Assembly: GCA_951406725.2 (NCBI GenBank)
Contig: OX597835.1
Location: 44,516,001-44,580,000 of the forward strand
Direction: 5' to 3'
Length of the DNA: 64,000 bases
From: Octopus vulgaris
Taxonomy: Eukaryota
Part shown: positions 27,001-39,000 of the stretch, piece after piece
How the letters are laid out: each line of letters begins with the position of its first letter
How positions within the stretch are numbered: the first letter of the stretch is position 1
Made by a program: the position numbers

Positions 27001-30000
27001 CGAAAATGACAACAACCAAACTTTGTTGAGTGATTTTCTCGTATGAGTACAAACTGGGTCATTCTTTCGCAGAAGCTCTACGAATATTAAGCGGGCCTTT
27101 AGTAAGGGTTTTGTTGACAGATCTGTTCAGAGATGGTTCTAAAGTTCTCGTTCAGGAGATAATAGTCTTGAAAATAAACCAAGGAGTAGGCCAAAATCAG
27201 TTATTCTGCATGATGGATTAAATGCTTTGGTTGAACAAAATCCGAGGACGAAGGTTCGAAAACATTCATCAGAACTCCAAACATCTCGCACAACTGTTTT
27301 TGGACACCTGTAAAAAACTGGAAAAGTCAAGAAAACGGATAGGTTTGTTCCACATAAAATGAACAGACACCTCGAAGTGTGCTTCTCATTGCTTTCTAGA
27401 CTGGAAAATACTATTTTGGCATCAAATCTTTACTTGTGATAAGAAATGGTTACTCTTTGACAACAGCAGATCAGGACAGTGATTAGATGCAGGAGAGTCA
27501 CCTAAAAACTACCCAAACCCACCATTACACCCTAAAATGTTTGTGGTCACTGTATGGTGGTCTGCGAAGGGAGTTATTCATTATTCATTTTTGCAACAAG
27601 AAAAGACGGTAACAGCAACATCGCATTGCGGGGAAATTGATTATATGCATGAGAATTTGATAAAGCAGCAACCCAGACTAGTTAATCGAGATGGCTGAAT
27701 TCTGGTCCATGACAAAACACGTCCTCACACTGCTCAAGCAACGGGCCGAAAGTTGCAAAGCCTGAAATATGAGATTTTGCTACATCCTCCCTATTTCCTA
27801 CTGATCGTCACTTATATAAGCATTTTGAGCTTTTCATAAGCAATAAAACATTCTTATATAGAGAAGAGGTAATTGAATCATTTGGACAGTTTATCACAGG
27901 AAGAAAAGAAGATTTAAAAAAAATAATGGAATATATGACAGAGAAACGATGGGTAAACTTCATAAATGAACATGGATGATACTTTGATTAAATAAATCAG
28001 TTCTCTAACACTTCTGAAACATTTTATTGTTACCTTTCAGATACAACATTTCATGTGAAACAAACTAATATGTCGAATTAAAGATAGATGTACACAAAAT
28101 TTACATAGATATAAGAGTTAGAACTTGTGATCCAGTGATGGATGTCTTTCTTTAGAAATGTTTGCCTACGGCACGACAAAGTTTCCCCACACCTGGTTTA
28201 ACCGAACTCTTCGAGAAAACCAATCCGGGATCAGAAACTTTCTGTTTTATTATCTTGAATTTTCTTCGTTAAACGAATGAAAGCAGTAATAAAAAATTAT
28301 CCAAAATTCTGACTGCCCTCTTGTACTAAATATATATATATATATATATATATATATATATATATATATATATATATATAAGTATATATGTATGTATATG
28401 TATGTATATCAATATATATTAATAACGTTCCTTATATATATATATATATATATATATATATATATATATATATATATATATATATATATATATATATATA
28501 TATATATATATATATATACATATATATATATACATATATATATATACATATATATATATACATATATATATATATATACATATATATATATATACATATA
28601 TATATATATATACATATATATATATATATACATATATATATATATACATATATATATATATACATACGTTTAAATATTTGTTGTGCAAGATTTTTTATGT
28701 GAAGTCGTGTGTTGAAACAGATATTGTTATATTTCGGAATGGTCATATTGCCAGTTTAGCCAATAAAAACACACGCACTATATATTTGGTGTTATTTTGC
28801 TTCAGTGATATTTATTTTTTACATTAATCTTAATCTTATTTCGGCCAAAGTTCTTTCGTCACACTCCTGTGACCGCATCAGTGGTCCTTTGTTTTCTTCT
28901 CACTTACTTGTGTCTCTCCTTACTAACCGTCAGCCATTTTGTATTTCTATTGTATGTCTTCATTTGCGCATGCTTATATCTCTATGTGCGTCTATGTTTA
29001 TTTAGTGTGTGGGGGGGATGCCTGTAATATTTGTATCTTCTGGTTATATACATTCTTGTAATTTGTATTTTGTTTTTGTTGTTGTTGCTTTTGTTCTAAT
29101 TTTATTCATGTGTTTACATCCACCCATTATTATCATTACATATGCTTGTATGTATGTATAACAACAATATTAGTAATAATAATAATAAATCTAATCGAGA
29201 AAAAAAAAAAAAAAAAAAAAGAATATACATATACATATATATATATATACATACATATACATATACATATATATATATATATATATATATACATATATAC
29301 ACACATATATACACATATACATATACATATATATACACATATACATATATATAGATATTCATTTCTATTTCTTTAATTACCTGTGTATTTATTATGTTTG
29401 CAGGATCCACTATTGTCATATGTTGTGGTGTGCGCTATTGCTCCATTCTAGTTTTCTATTCAGGCTAGGTTTATTTTCTATTATATGTGTAGCTTCTGTA
29501 ATTTGTCTAATTGTTGCATCTGTTCTATGTGTGGACAATATCTTAATCTCTATGTTATTGATTGATCCCCCGTGTTCTTGTTCGGCGTGTTGGTACAGAA
29601 TCGATGAGCTTTTACCTTCCTTGAGTTGTCTCCAATGTTCATTCACCCGCTCACCAATGCTTCTTGCAGTTTCCCCTACGTATGTTACTGTCTTGTTACT
29701 GCATCGTCCCTCTATACATCTTATACTATAGACCACATTTCTGGCTTTACAGTTCGTTTGTGGGCTAAATCTACATACAGTGCAATAGTTATCCGTACAG
29801 AGAGTTCTACTAAAAGGATAGGTTCTACCAATTATAGATCTGATAGGGTTGCCTGGCTTTTCAACAACCTTAATTCTTAGTTTAAGTTTATCTAGGGTCC
29901 TTCTAAAGCGGTACGCTAGTTCACCTCCAGGGGTGGTGTCAACGAACATGACACTCTGGTATTTATGGCTATCATACCAAGAGTTGGCCTTCCTTATTTT

Positions 30001-36000: not shown

Positions 36001-39000
36001 ACAGCCATAAAGAAAGGATCAGAGTATACAAAGGAGCCATGAAGAAATTTGATAATATATTATGTAATGATAGGAATGGGATTTGCCCACTCTACAGGAA
36101 CAAGTCATGGAACACTATAGAAAGGACAAAAAAGAAAATAAGGAAGGCCAACTCTTGGTATGATAGCCATAAATACCAGAGTGTCATGTTCGTTGACACC
36201 ACCCCTGGAGGTGAACTAGCGTACCGCTTTAGAAGGACCCTAGATAAACTTAAACTAAGAATTAAGGTTGTTGAAAAGCCAGGCAACCCTATCAGATCTA
36301 TAATTGGTAGAACCTATCCTTTTAGTAGAACTCTCTGTACGGATAACTATTGCACTGTATGTAGATTTAGCCCACAAACGAACTGTAAAGCCAGAAATGT
36401 GGTCTATAGTATAAGATGTATAGAGGGACGATGCAGTAACAAGACAGTAACATACGTAGGGGAAACTGCAAGAAGCATTGGTGAGCGGGTGAATGAACAT
36501 TGGAGACAACTCAAGGAAGGTAAAAGCTCATCGATTCTGTACCAACACGCCGAACAAGAACACGGGGGATCAATCAATAACATAGAGATTAAGATATTGT
36601 CCACACATAGAACAGATGCAACAATTAGACAAATTACAGAAGCTACACATATAATAGAAAATAAACCTAGCCTGAATAGAAAACTAGAATGGAGCAATAG
36701 CGCACACCACAACATATGACAATAGTGGATCCTGCAAACATAATAAATACACAGGTAATTAAAGAAATAGAAATGAATATCTATATATATGTATATGTGT
36801 ATATATATGTATATGTATATGTGTATATATGTGTGTATATATGTATATATATATATATATATATGTATATGTATATGTATGTATATATATATATATGTAT
36901 ATGTATATTCTTTTTTTTTTTTTTTTTTTCTCGATTAGATTTATTATTATTATTACTAATATTGTTGTTATACATACATACAAGCATATGTAATGATAAT
37001 AATGGGTGGATGTAAACACATGAATAAAATTAGAACAAAAGCAACAACAACAAAAACAAAATACAAATTACAAGAATGTATATAACCAGAAGATACAAAT
37101 ATTACAGGCATCCCCCCCCCACACACTAAATAAACATAGACGCACATAGAGATATAAGCATGCGCAAATGAAGACATACAATAGAAATACAAAATGGCTG
37201 ACGGTTAGTAAGGAGAGACACAAGTAAGTGAGAAGAAAACAAAGGACCACTGATGCGGTCACAGGAGTGTGACGAAAGAACTTTGGCCGAAATAAGATTA
37301 AGATTAATGTAAAAAATAAATATCACTGAAGCAAAATAACACCAAATATATAGTGCGTGTGTTTTTATTGGCTAAACTGGCAATATGACCATTCCGAAAT
37401 ATAACAATATATATACATATATATATATATATATATATATATATATATATATATATATATATATATATATATATATATATATATATATATATATATATAT
37501 ATATATATACATATATATATATATATATATATATATATATATATATATAGTACAAGAGGGCAGTCAAAATTTTGGATAATTATCTTTTGTTATCTTACCG
37601 TTTTATCATATATATATATATATATATATATATATATATATATATATATATATATGTGTGTGTGTGTGTGTGTGTGTATGTGTGTGTGTGTGTATGTGTA
37701 TCTGTGTGTGTGTATGTGCGTGTTTGCCCGTACGTGTATTTATATATATGCAAGAGTGTGAGGGTATTTCTGAGTAATTCAAAGATCCAAACTTATTCAA
37801 CATTAATTCCACTTCTCTGAGAATTACATTAGGGACTCTACAATCTATAACCTTATTGAAATAAACTCAAAATAATTTGTTCTTTCCACAAATTGATCCA
37901 GTGTGTCAGGTAAGCAGGCATAGCAAATCCTGTTTGAAAATCGTAACCTATCCACAGCTCTATACATCTCAATTATGCGGAGGCACGAAACACATCTTGA
38001 CCAACTTTTGCAAACACTTATTAACCAGTACTCCCCTGAAATCAATATCTTGTAATCAAGTGTACTTCAGATGCAGATAAATGCTTTTCAATCTAATTCC
38101 AACACACTTCTCTACATCTTTCTCGTGAATTTTATGGCTAATAGAAGTGTCTGTTTCTGGTTTTCGTGGCTCTTGCAAACCTGTGTTTATGGTTCTATGC
38201 AACAACGAGTCAATATATCGTTGAAAGAGCCGTATGACATCGATGGATGTATTTTTGATTTTCTTTTGATTCCACAATTGTGATTTTATGGACTATTTTA
38301 ATTCAGAAACAAATTTTAAAACAGAAACAAATCGGAACTTTATACAAGAGGGAAAATTATATGCGCTGTCTGCACTTAAGAAACAAACTCACACCATCGT
38401 GTTGATTTGAAGCTTCTTTAATTGAAAATCTATCAAGGAAACGTATGGGATCGTAGTCTTTCTACCACAATCAAGGTACGAGTATGCCTCAGTGAAAACT
38501 GACCAATGGCATTCTTAAGGTCAAAAACTGCCTTCTTTCCATTGGAAATTATTTGCTGATAACATCCTGTGATACGGATTCAAGTCTTTGAGGTTAAAAA
38601 AAAATGAATATTGAACCATAATTGATCTGAGCTAAGCAAACAATCTTTACACGTTTACAATATGATAAATCAATAACTATTTCTTTACTCCCCACAAGGG
38701 GCTAAACACAGAGAGGACAAACAGGGACAGACAAACGGATTAAATCGATTACATCGACCCCAATACGTAACTGGTACTTAATTTATCGACCCCGAAAGGA
38801 TGAAAGGCAAAGTCGACCTCGGCGGAATTTGAACTCAGAACGTAGCGGCAGACGAAATACCGATAAGCATTTCGCCCGGCGTGCTAACGATTCTGCCAGC
38901 TCACCGCCTTGATACAATCAATAACACGTAGCTATTGTAGGGAGACGCTCAGACAGAACGTGAATAAGTCTCGGCAGATATCTCTCAGAAATCATTTTAG

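What the first reader, a model, noticed from the sequence alone, without database searches (positions are those of the whole stretch)
28665..37410. Very recent, probably active Penelope-like element inserted as an 8.7-kb head-to-head palindrome
Arms of ~3.84 kb surround a 1011-bp spacer (32562-33572) that holds the shared pLTR and the ORF start. The junction at 32561/32562 is blunt. The differences I can see are two transitions (33612/32522, 34189/31945) and homopolymer or microsatellite lengths. The ORF is intact with all catalytic motifs. Inverted and tandem insertions are known for PLEs, but a near-full-length inverted arm is striking. The GAAIG..M.WWD motif B' and the CxxxxCxxC linker suggest a Nematis/Neptune-type clade (inference).
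Basis: partly seen in the sequence, partly recalled or inferred. Interest (0 to 1): 0.8.

Follow-up and report, generated by a model that had tools for sequence, protein, structure and literature searches.

The report
Young octopus Penelope-like retrotransposon palindrome
This is a very recent insertion of a Penelope-like jumping gene in an octopus genome, made of one complete copy and one mirror-image partial copy joined head to head; the arrangement is already known for this class, so it is a clean example rather than a new kind of element.

Summary
Window 28665-37410 (8,746 bp) is a full-length Penelope-like element (PLE; 32562-37410, intact 1,309-aa ORF) with an inverted, 5'-truncated copy (28665-32561) abutting its 5' end bluntly. 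The 3.84-kb arms differ by 2 transitions and 4 indels in simple runs.

New points:
- A 7-13-bp target-site duplication flanks the whole unit, inside a roughly 470-bp (TA)n tract. This indicates one integration event.
- The left arm runs 56 nt further into the downstream pLTR. This is the known PLE "tail", and it means the left arm cannot be a DNA copy of the right arm.
- The left arm also carries a frameshift.
- A 32-bp inverted repeat lies outside both TA tracts and is unexplained.

The host is Octopus (vulgaris group). Dozens of 95-100%-identical fragments lie on 23 chromosome-scale contigs.

Pseudo-LTRs, head-to-head inverted copies, tails, (TA)n targets and N-rich ORF inserts are all published for PLEs. 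A purified PLE protein nicks and extends both DNA strands in vitro, starting at two internal RNA sites (PMC11167929).

Clade: the endonuclease linker fits Neptune/Nematis. No RT phylogeny against labelled references was possible. Activity is plausible but not shown.

Verdict: an ordinary, well-preserved member of a known kind.

The parts
28295..28326 (+). Left copy (X) of a 32-nt inverted repeat lying outside the TA tract. It is part of a longer dispersed repeat.
   Evidence: 31/32 complementary to 37550-37581. The 17-mer occurs twice against 0.00 expected. A third, diverged copy lies at 24989-25035 (87.5% over 48 bp).
28327..28664 (.). Left part of the (TA)n target microsatellite (338 nt).
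   Evidence: The part next to the element has 10 C-type interruptions and no G.
28658..28664 (+). Left copy of the target-site duplication ATATACA (up to 13 nt, 28654-28666, if ambiguous junction bases are counted).
   Evidence: Identical to 37411-37417. A match of at least 7 nt containing a C occurs in 850 of 41,529 random position pairs in the two tracts (2.0%).
28665..32561 (-). Inverted, 5'-truncated copy (left arm). It corresponds to 33573-37410 of the right copy plus a 56-nt extension.
   Evidence: tblastn of the ORF: residues 312-1116 at 99.75% and residues 1112-1309 in another frame.
28665..28720 (-). The 'tail': 56 nt of element sequence (ORF nt +27 to +82 of the next unit), present at the 3' end of the left arm only.
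   Evidence: 28665-28974 is the exact reverse complement of 32562-32871, whereas the right arm stops at the equivalent of 32815.
30002..30006 (-). A-run one base shorter than in the right arm (5 versus 6 A). It frameshifts the left-arm reading frame.
   Evidence: The ORF is split into 29994-32582 and 29416-30027.
32561..32562 (.). Blunt head-to-head junction between the two copies.
   Evidence: No shared base: a continued left arm would read T where 32562 is A.
32562..37410 (+). Full-length copy: one 4,595-nt unit plus 254 nt of terminal redundancy.
   Evidence: Direct repeat 32562-32815 = 37157-37410, 100%, spacing 4,595.
32562..32815 (+). 5' pseudo-LTR. It contains the ATG (32790) and the first 26 nt of the ORF.
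32649..32693 (+). Hammerhead-like type-I motif with C instead of A at core position 9. Copies at 37244-37288 (+) and 28843-28887 (-).
   Evidence: My own descriptor scan. The minimum-free-energy fold shows helices I and II, z -1.19. Three exact copies. No Rfam hammerhead match at E up to 10.
32790..36719 (+). Intact ORF, 1,309 aa: conserved N-terminal domain, N-rich insert, RT, linker, GIY-YIG endonuclease.
33525..34334 (+). Asparagine-rich low-complexity insert (residues 246-515, 33% N), absent from 10 of 10 aligned relatives. Both arm-to-arm substitutions lie in it.
34587..36089 (+). Reverse transcriptase region (residues about 600-1100): DKS 611-613, YGLRKDHK 682-689, RPVCGA 701-706, D761, QxxGxxIG 889-896, YVDD 932-935.
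   Evidence: Invariant columns in alignment A1. Pfam RVT_1 below cut-off, E 0.0017. A profile of the family matches the DRT1 RT, E 4.7e-5. Model pLDDT 88.2, best structural matches are telomerase RTs.
36336..36677 (+). Zn-finger-like linker Cx4CxxC (C1183, C1188, C1191) and GIY-YIG endonuclease with CCHH (Y1206, C1210, C1215, Y1222-G1224-E1225, R1233, H1237, H1253, H1258, R1280, E1284, N1296).
   Evidence: Invariant in 11 of 11 sequences. Pfam GIY-YIG below cut-off, E 0.0026, 18.4 bits against a cut-off of 22.6.
37157..37410 (+). 3' pseudo-LTR of the right copy. Its 3' end is at ORF nt +26 of the next unit.
37411..37417 (+). Right copy of the target-site duplication ATATACA.
37411..37549 (.). 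Right part of the (TA)n target (139 nt): 2 C-type interruptions, no G, so the same polarity as the left part.
37550..37581 (-). Right copy (X') of the 32-nt flanking inverted repeat.

Best explanation
Window 28665-37410 is one integration of a young, multi-copy Penelope-like retrotransposon of Octopus (vulgaris group). [quoted passage not shown] It landed in a (TA)n microsatellite of about 470 bp.

Proposed mechanism:
1. The element's endonuclease nicked both strands of the TA tract 7-13 bp apart.
2. Each exposed 3'-OH primed reverse transcription of element RNA. Priming started not at the RNA's end but at one of two internal sites in the first 82 nt of the downstream ORF copy: nt +26 for the right arm and nt +82 for the left arm.
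3. One cDNA ran to the RNA's 5' end, giving the full-length right copy with a 254-nt pseudo-LTR.
4. The other cDNA stopped 1,011 nt short, giving the inverted left arm.
5. The two 5' ends were joined bluntly.

Shown here: the architecture, the near-identity of the arms, the two different 3' ends, the flanking direct repeat, the intact ORF with conserved catalytic residues, and the many near-identical copies in O. vulgaris.

Inferred: the order of events, the use of two RNA templates (or one copied twice), and how the blunt joint was made.

The right copy has what an autonomous copy needs at sequence level. Activity itself is not shown.
For: Structure:
- Arms with a 1,011-nt spacer, a 254-nt direct pLTR at 100%, and a 310-nt inverted pLTR at 100%.
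- Only 2 substitutions and 4 simple-run indels between the arms.

Single event:
- ATATACA occurs directly at both outer junctions (28658-28664, 37411-37417), extendable to 13 nt. A match of this kind has a 2.0% chance (850 of 41,529 position pairs).
- No TA residues lie at the inner junction.

Two separate primings:
- The left arm holds 56 nt of element sequence that the right arm lacks, so it cannot have been copied from the right arm.
- Both TA tracts carry C-type interruptions on the + strand (12 C, 0 G next to the element). They are therefore two halves of one tract in direct polarity, not mirror copies.

Protein:
- RT and endonuclease residues are invariant across 11 relatives.
- AlphaFold model pLDDT 88.2, pTM 0.86.
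- Telomerase RTs are the top structural matches.

Young family:
- 46 of 193 stored proteins have at least 95% identity to the ORF, and 10 of the 25 longest are 100% identical.
- The listed cluster members are all, where a name is given, O. vulgaris, and lie on 23 different chromosome-size contigs.

Literature:
- Inverted 5'-truncated copies, pLTRs, tails and (TA)n targets (PMC8557442, passages).
- Units with an inverted pLTR flanked by 8-10-bp TSDs, a 31-bp tail, N-rich ORF inserts, and head-to-head as the commonest inverted form (PMC3846280, passages).
- A purified Anolis PLE protein cleaves and extends both top and bottom strands, prefers AT-rich DNA, and starts reverse transcription at two adjacent internal sites whose interval is the 'tail' (PMC11167929, abstract and whole main text).
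- 31 PLE families with 336 recently active insertions in O. vulgaris (PMC13282606, passages).
Against: - I had no reads, second haplotype or empty-site allele, so the assembly itself is unverified. All four indels between the arms are in homopolymers or microsatellites, which is also where long-read assemblies err.
- The TSD was found post hoc in low-complexity sequence (p about 0.02).
- A 32-nt inverted repeat sits outside both TA tracts, and the model does not predict it. None of the 33 other merged TA tracts in the window has a flanking inverted repeat made of non-microsatellite sequence.
- The two arms differ at 2 sites, so they may come from two templates, from RT errors, or from later mutation. 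I cannot tell which.
- The 56-nt interval between the two 3' ends is longer than the 30-40 nt quoted for tails.
- The in vitro data are for a Poseidon-clade element, not this clade.
- Rfam finds no hammerhead, and the hammerhead-like box has C at the conserved position 9.
- Pfam RVT_1 and GIY-YIG matches are below the curated cut-offs. Only 5 of 30 and 2 of 30 family members match them at E up to 0.01.
Confidence: 0.8

Rival explanations
1. One cDNA, then fold-back. A single target-primed cDNA (the right copy) folded back on itself or switched template, and the left arm was copied from it as DNA (self-priming or hairpin model).
For: Self-priming has been proposed for PLE inverted repeats (PMC3846280 discussion passage). 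Short palindromes (GCATGC, TGCGCA) lie at the start of the pLTR just right of the junction. Inverted symmetry reappears outside the TA tracts.
Against: The left arm contains 56 nt (28665-28720) that the right arm lacks, so the right arm cannot have been its template. A fold-back copy running on into the flank would mirror the TA tract, yet both tracts have C-type interruptions on the same strand and share a direct ATATACA. The inner junction has no microhomology to prime from.
Confidence: 0.07
2. DNA-level inverted duplication of a simple insertion, or a fold-back chimeric read built into the assembly.
For: The arms are near-identical and differ mostly in homopolymer or microsatellite lengths. 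A 32-nt inverted repeat lies beyond the element. The window is a scaffold with a 100-N gap at 15311-15410.
Against: There is a 1,011-nt asymmetric spacer. The outer ends are unequal (56-nt tail). The TA tracts are of 338 and 139 nt with different internal islands and the same, not mirrored, polarity. A direct repeat sits at the two outer junctions. The flanks on the two sides are distinct unique sequence. The left 32-nt repeat is continuous with a longer dispersed repeat, whereas the right one is not.
Confidence: 0.05
3. Two independent insertions of the same family into the same TA tract, in opposite orientation, which happen to abut.
For: The family is young and multi-copy. (TA)n is a preferred PLE target (PMC8557442). 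The arms differ at two sites.
Against: Not one TA residue separates the two 5' ends. Neither copy has its own flanking duplication, while the pair as a whole does. The same architecture is described as a frequent single insertion unit with TSDs around the whole (PMC3846280).
Confidence: 0.04

Closest known systems
Canonical endonuclease-bearing Penelope-like elements as described for Penelope (Drosophila virilis), Pen2a_Av of Adineta vaga and Naiads (PMC3846280, PMC8557442)
   Same: Single ORF with RT followed by a GIY-YIG endonuclease with CCHH. Pseudo-LTR from a partial tandem that includes the first codons of the ORF. An inverted 5'-truncated copy abutting the upstream pLTR head to head. 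An extension ('tail') at one end only. A short TSD around the whole unit. Insertion into (TA)n.
   Different: The inverted copy here is 3.9 kb, about 84% of a unit, rather than just a pLTR of about 200 bp as in the A. vaga examples. The tail interval is 56 nt rather than 30-40 nt. The motif upstream of the RT reads DKS, not DKG. No canonical hammerhead is detected.
Poseidon element PAc of Anolis carolinensis, characterised in vitro (PMC11167929)
   Same: PAc cleaves and extends both DNA strands, prefers AT-rich DNA, and starts reverse transcription at two internal sites within the start of the ORF, with the tail being the interval between them. The octopus locus shows the in-genome counterpart: two arms, one ending at each of two sites (+26 and +82).
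   Different: PAc belongs to the Penelope/Poseidon clade, which lacks the linker Zn-finger. Its start sites are 111-118 nt into the ORF. Nothing was measured for the octopus protein.
Neptune and Nematis clades of PLEs (definition as quoted in PMC8557442)
   Same: A CX2-5CxxC Zn-finger-like linker upstream of GIY-YIG (here Cx4CxxC) plus CCHH inside the GIY-YIG core. The linker is associated with (TA)n targeting.
   Different: Membership of either clade rests on RT phylogeny, which was not run. The nearest stored relatives outside Octopus are at most 49% identical and carry no clade label.
Asparagine-rich inserts in Adineta vaga Penelope ORFs (PMC3846280)
   Same: A long in-frame, roughly 30% asparagine, low-complexity insert that does not break the ORF.
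   Different: The position differs. Here the insert lies between the N-terminal domain and the RT (residues 246-515). In A. vaga it lies between RT and endonuclease, or between the RT core and the thumb.
LINE-1 twin priming (recalled from general knowledge, no call)
   Same: Both ends of a staggered break prime reverse transcription, giving an inverted segment.
   Different: Twin priming uses one RNA, so it gives an inversion without duplication. Here 3.84 kb is present twice.

Membership tests
Penelope-like elements (endonuclease-bearing) | Reverse transcriptase related to telomerase RT | tested here: met
   Catalytic D761 and YVDD 932-935 are invariant. Model pLDDT is 88.2. The two best PDB structural matches are telomerase RTs, followed by group II intron RTs (TM 0.37/0.42, so fold level only). 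No sequence phylogeny was run.
Penelope-like elements (endonuclease-bearing) | GIY-YIG endonuclease with a CCHH motif, two cysteines between GIY and YIG | tested here: met
   Y1206, C1210, C1215, Y1222-G1224-E1225, R1233, H1237, H1253, H1258, R1280, E1284 and N1296 are invariant in 11 of 11 sequences. Pfam GIY-YIG scores only 18.4 bits against a cut-off of 22.6.
Penelope-like elements (endonuclease-bearing) | Pseudo-LTRs from a partial tandem | tested here: met
   32562-32815 = 37157-37410, 254 nt, 100%, spacing 4,595.
Penelope-like elements (endonuclease-bearing) | Optional inverted 5'-truncated copy at the 5' end, and a tail at one end | tested here: met
   Left arm 28665-32561 with a 56-nt extension at 28665-28720.
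Penelope-like elements (endonuclease-bearing) | Hammerhead ribozyme motif in the pLTR | tested here: inconclusive
   Rfam gives no match at gathering score or at E up to 10. A type-I hammerhead-like box lies at 32649-32693 with helices I and II, the 9/10.1 bulge and the G10.1-C11.1 pair, but it has C at position 9 and a non-palindromic loop 3. All three copies are identical, so covariation cannot be tested.
Penelope-like elements (endonuclease-bearing) | DKG motif upstream of the RT core | tested here: not met
   It reads DKS (D611, K612, S613), invariant in 11 of 11 sequences. Published clade variants are DKA (Naiad) and DKT (Hydra) (PMC8557442).
Neptune / Nematis | CX2-5CxxC Zn-finger-like linker between RT and endonuclease | tested here: met
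   C1183-x4-C1188-x2-C1191, invariant.
Neptune / Nematis | Placement in that clade in an RT phylogeny | not testable with these tools
A tree of 30 unlabelled relatives only shows a long separate branch (quick method; the careful search did not finish).
Penelope/Poseidon | No CX2-5CxxC linker | tested here: not met
   The linker is present.
Naiad / Chlamys | N-terminal endonuclease, CxC motif | tested here: not met
   The endonuclease is C-terminal (residues 1183-1296). The N-terminal 245 aa carry no GIY-YIG.
Hydra | No CCHH; linker CxCX5C; DKT; elements under 3 kb | tested here: not met
   CCHH is present, the linker is Cx4CxxC, the motif is DKS, and the unit is 4,595 nt.

The most novel reading that the evidence does not exclude
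The target may not have been just any TA tract. It may have been a long cruciform-prone one: about 470 bp of (TA)n bracketed by a 32-bp inverted repeat. On this reading the PLE endonuclease with its Zn-finger linker acts as a structure-specific nuclease on such extruded DNA, much as the GIY-YIG nuclease SLX1 acts on branched DNA (SLX1 is recalled from general knowledge, no call). Symmetrical cleavage of a cruciform would hand the RNP two equivalent 3'-OH primers. That would explain why head-to-head inverted copies are the commonest PLE arrangement and why linker-bearing clades favour (TA)n. Against it: the interruptions inside the inferred tract are not mirror-symmetric, and this is a single locus.
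Probability: 0.1. Interest if true: 0.55.

Novelty: new member of a known kind. Interest (0 to 1): 0.25.

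Why it matters
How PLEs build their tandem and inverted insertion units is still described as open (PMC8557442 passage). The first in vitro system dates from 2024 (PMC11167929).

This locus is so young that every junction is still legible:
- a flanking duplication around the whole unit
- a blunt inner joint
- two arms ending at two different internal sites of the template

It therefore serves as a natural in vivo record that agrees with 'both strands nicked and extended, two internal start sites'. 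It argues against DNA fold-back copying for this case.

It also marks a candidate autonomous master copy of a PLE family that has recently spread over most O. vulgaris chromosomes. That could be useful for insertion-polymorphism or expression work. Beyond that it is an ordinary transposon insertion.

Tried and rejected
- Pfam on the whole ORF found nothing at E up to 0.01. Only sub-threshold RVT_1 and GIY-YIG matches appeared on sub-regions.
- phmmer against PDB sequences found nothing meaningful.
- Rfam on the window (gathering) and on 28200-37700 (E up to 10) gave no ribozyme. The 38 weak matches are miRNA, snoRNA or other models lying on TA/TG microsatellites or N-rich codon repeats.
- Clade assignment failed by three routes:
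  - A paper search for 'Nematis' returned nothing new on PLE clades.
  - The one supplementary text file held for PMC8557442 lists only Naiads for Octopus.
  - The tree of 30 unlabelled relatives cannot name a clade.
- I tested whether the flanking 32-nt inverted repeat is a general feature of TA tracts. It is not: the best flank alignments of the 33 other merged tracts, scores 21-29, were all microsatellite-like.
- I tested whether the inferred 470-nt pre-insertion tract is mirror-symmetric in its interruptions. It is not: score 356 against a shuffled mean of 366.5, and 299 of 300 shuffles score at least as high.
- I searched for further copies of the flank repeats. Only one diverged third copy of X (24989-25035) and one 19-nt match of the piece right of X' (37585-37603 = 8299-8317, again beside a TA tract) were found. 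The origin of X/X' stays open.
- Homodimer prediction of the N-terminal 245 aa, tried by analogy with the predicted PAc dimer, gave no verdict.
- The first structure job failed. The repeat gave the model used here.
- Considered and rejected: 3' transduction of (TA)n plus X from a source locus. It would give mirrored TA tracts and identical pLTR/TA junctions on both arms, and neither is seen.

Full report
**Observation**

The repeat scan finds inverted arms 29997-32561 / 33573-36137 (2,565 nt). They continue as 29206-30006 / 36129-36929, with 1,011 nt between the arms. A global alignment of the reverse-complemented left arm with 33573-37410 shows two substitutions, 32522/33612 and 31945/34189, both transitions. 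It also shows four indels, all in simple runs:
- one A in an A-run
- TATA
- TT
- CC

So 2 of 3,838 aligned positions differ. The inner junction 32561|32562 has no shared base.

**Anatomy**

- The right copy runs 32562-37410. It is one 4,595-nt unit plus a 254-nt terminal redundancy: 32562-32815 = 37157-37410 at 100%. That redundancy is a pseudo-LTR.
- The ATG at 32790 lies inside the pLTR. The ORF runs to 36719 and gives 1,309 aa.
- The left copy, on the minus strand, starts at the equivalent of 33573. It runs through its own 3' pLTR and goes 56 nt further than the right arm: 28665-28974 is the exact reverse complement of 32562-32871.
- The right arm therefore ends at ORF nt +26 of the next unit, and the left arm at +82.
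- The one-base A-run difference splits the left-arm frame. Only the right copy is intact.
- No other copy or coding fragment of the element lies elsewhere in the window.

**Target and flanks**

Both outer junctions lie in (TA)n: 338 nt on the left (28327-28664) and 139 nt on the right (37411-37549). Both junctions show a few bases of ambiguity with the TA tract, TA on the left and ATAT on the right.

The last 7 nt before the element and the first 7 nt after it are both ATATACA. The match reaches 13 nt if the ambiguous bases are counted. Among all pairs of positions in the two tracts, 850 of 41,529 (2.0%) give such a match containing a C (checked).

The part of the left tract next to the element has 10 C and no G interruptions. 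The right tract has 2 C and no G. The two tracts therefore have the same polarity, not mirrored polarity. I read this as a 7-13-bp target-site duplication around the whole 8,746-bp unit, inside one former tract of about 470 nt.

**The unexplained flank repeat**

Outside the TA tracts lies a 32-nt inverted repeat, 28295-28326 / 37550-37581, matching at 31 of 32 positions. Its 17-nt core occurs exactly twice in the window against 0.00 expected.

- The left copy continues into a longer dispersed repeat with a diverged third copy at 24989-25035.
- The right copy is short. It is followed by another small repeated piece, 37585-37603 = 8299-8317, again beside a TA tract.
- None of the 33 other merged TA tracts in the window has a flanking inverted repeat of non-microsatellite sequence.
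- The interruptions of the inferred tract are not mirror-symmetric.

Because the repeat lies outside the duplication and the tracts are in direct polarity, I take it as a pre-existing feature of the target. Its origin is open.

**Protein**

Sequence-family evidence:
- Pfam gives only sub-threshold RVT_1 (E 0.0017) and GIY-YIG (E 0.0026). Only 5 and 2 of 30 family members match these models at E up to 0.01.
- A profile of the family matches a solved defence-associated RT across motifs B and C (E 4.7e-5).

Conservation in an alignment with 10 relatives:
- DKS 611-613
- YGLRKDHK 682-689
- RPVCGA 701-706
- D761
- YVDD 932-935
- linker C1183-x4-C1188-x2-C1191
- GIY-YIG core with C1210 and C1215
- the downstream R, H, E and N residues

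Structure:
- An AlphaFold model of residues 520-1309 is confident (pLDDT 88.2, pTM 0.86).
- Its best PDB matches are telomerase RTs (6zdq_A E 3.2e-8, 3du5_A E 4.7e-7), followed by group II intron RTs.
- TM-scores are modest, so this is a match at fold level only.

The N-rich insert:
- Residues 246-515 are 33% asparagine and are absent from all 10 aligned relatives.
- Both arm-to-arm substitutions fall in this insert and both change a residue: C275 versus R, at a CpG, and N467 versus S.
- The one other O. vulgaris copy that covers residue 467 has S, the left-arm state.

**Host and family**

- The best database match is an Octopus vulgaris hypothetical protein, 784 of 794 identical. The next relatives are at most 48-49% identical.
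- A search among shorter proteins listed 120 of 232 hits. They include ten O. vulgaris clusters at 99-100% identity and others at 82-95%.
- Three of these clusters hold 15, 26 and 14 members. All but one listed member are named O. vulgaris. Together with a fourth, single-member cluster, the listed members lie on 23 different chromosome-size contigs.
- The exact 1,309-aa sequence is not in the collection.
- Using the calibration quoted in PMC13282606 (Jukes-Cantor 0.09 for about 25 My), two differences between the arms give roughly 72,000 years, with a Poisson range of 9,000-261,000. This is an upper-type estimate if either difference arose during reverse transcription.

**Ribozyme**

Rfam reports no hammerhead at gathering score, nor at E up to 10. 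A descriptor scan of my own and a fold show a type-I hammerhead-like box in each pLTR copy, at 32649-32693, 37244-37288 and 28843-28887 on the minus strand.

It has these features, which PMC4209133 lists for PLE hammerheads (passages):
- helix I
- CUGAUG
- a bulged base before helix II
- a G10.1-C11.1 pair
- GAA
- A15.1...U16.1 around a 4-nt loop
- U17

It departs in two ways: it has C where the core has A9, and its loop 3 is not palindromic. The three copies are identical, so there is no covariation to test. The result is inconclusive.

**Comparison with what is known**

- PMC8557442 (passages; one supplementary text file searched) describes pLTRs, frequent inverted 5'-truncated copies at the 5' end, a 30-40-bp tail at one end and (TA)n targeting. 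It also describes the CX2-5CxxC linker of Neptune and Nematis, absent in Penelope/Poseidon and altered in Hydra. Its supplement lists Octopus Naiads as (TA)n-targeting.
- PMC3846280 (passages) describes units with an inverted pLTR inside 8-10-bp TSDs, a 31-bp tail, head-to-head as the most frequent inverted arrangement, and N-rich in-frame inserts.
- PMC11167929 (abstract and whole main text) shows that a purified Anolis PLE protein cleaves and extends both strands, prefers AT-rich DNA, and initiates at two adjacent internal RNA sites whose interval is the tail.
- PMC13282606 (passages) already reports 31 PLE families with 336 recently active insertions in O. vulgaris.
- PMC8967140 (passages) lists Penelope among abundant coleoid repeats.

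Every feature of this locus thus has a published precedent. What differs is degree and detail:
- a 3.9-kb inverted arm
- a 56-nt tail interval
- DKS instead of DKG
- the N-rich insert placed before the RT
- no canonical hammerhead

**Mechanism and rivals**

The two different 3' ends, the direct-polarity TA halves and the flanking duplication fit one break whose two 3'-OH ends each primed reverse transcription on element RNA. They exclude a DNA copy of one arm from the other. They also argue against an inverted duplication, a fold-back assembly artefact and two separate insertions.

I could not check reads, other haplotypes, other genomic copies or orthologous sites.

**Verdict**

The element is a well-preserved, very young member of a known class in a genome where such activity is already reported. 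Interest is modest (0.25). The most novel reading still open is structure-specific targeting of cruciform-prone TA tracts.

Noticed in passing
window 28295-28326 and 37550-37581: A 32-nt inverted repeat (31/32) brackets the two TA tracts outside the element and its target-site duplication. The left copy belongs to a longer dispersed repeat, and the right copy is short. Its origin is open: a pre-existing AT-rich palindrome, transposon ends, or something else.
   Followed up: partly
window 37585-37603 and 8299-8317 (minus): A 19-nt exact match immediately next to a (TA)n tract in both places. Small repeated fragments seem to cluster at TA microsatellites, which may be remnants of older TA-targeting elements.
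   Followed up: partly
window 24989-25035 (minus): A third, diverged copy (87.5% over 48 bp) of the repeat that contains the left flank motif. It is followed by TG and GATA/GACA microsatellites.
   Followed up: partly
window 33612 and 34189 (residues 275 and 467): Both substitutions between the arms lie in the N-rich insert, which makes up about 20% of the arm length, and both are non-synonymous. One is a CpG-to-TpG change in the right arm. The cause could be chance, local mutability or polishing error.
   Followed up: partly
window 31806-32576 (+) and 33522-34328 (-): Long antisense ORFs (256 and 268 aa, rich in I, T and V) lie opposite the N-rich insert. They look like by-products of the AAC/AAT codon repeats rather than genes.
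   Followed up: no
window 11755-12768 (+): A 337-aa open frame with a zf-RVT match (E 1.8e-6, above the Pfam cut-off). It is probably the C-terminal part of a non-LTR retrotransposon.
   Followed up: partly
window 38672-38919, with copies near 46060-46490, 21782-21964, 17289-18057, 42211-42378 and others: A repeat of about 250 bp is present more than ten times in the window at 78-94% identity. It is SINE-like in size and was not classified.
   Followed up: no
window 15311-15410: A run of 100 N (scaffold gap or mask). It was left untouched.
   Followed up: no
proteins (O. vulgaris records CAI9736583.1 and CAI9736584.1; also the pairs CAI9736119/20, CAI9725635/36 and CAI9723262/63): Consecutively numbered gene models carry identical or near-identical fragments of this element. 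This is a lead that tandem or inverted double copies of the family occur at other loci too.
   Followed up: no
window 28200-37700: The Rfam matches in permissive mode are mostly mir-297, mir-1277, mir-3149, mir-4012 and mir-466, all lying on TA/TG microsatellites. They are low-complexity artefacts, not miRNA genes.
   Followed up: yes
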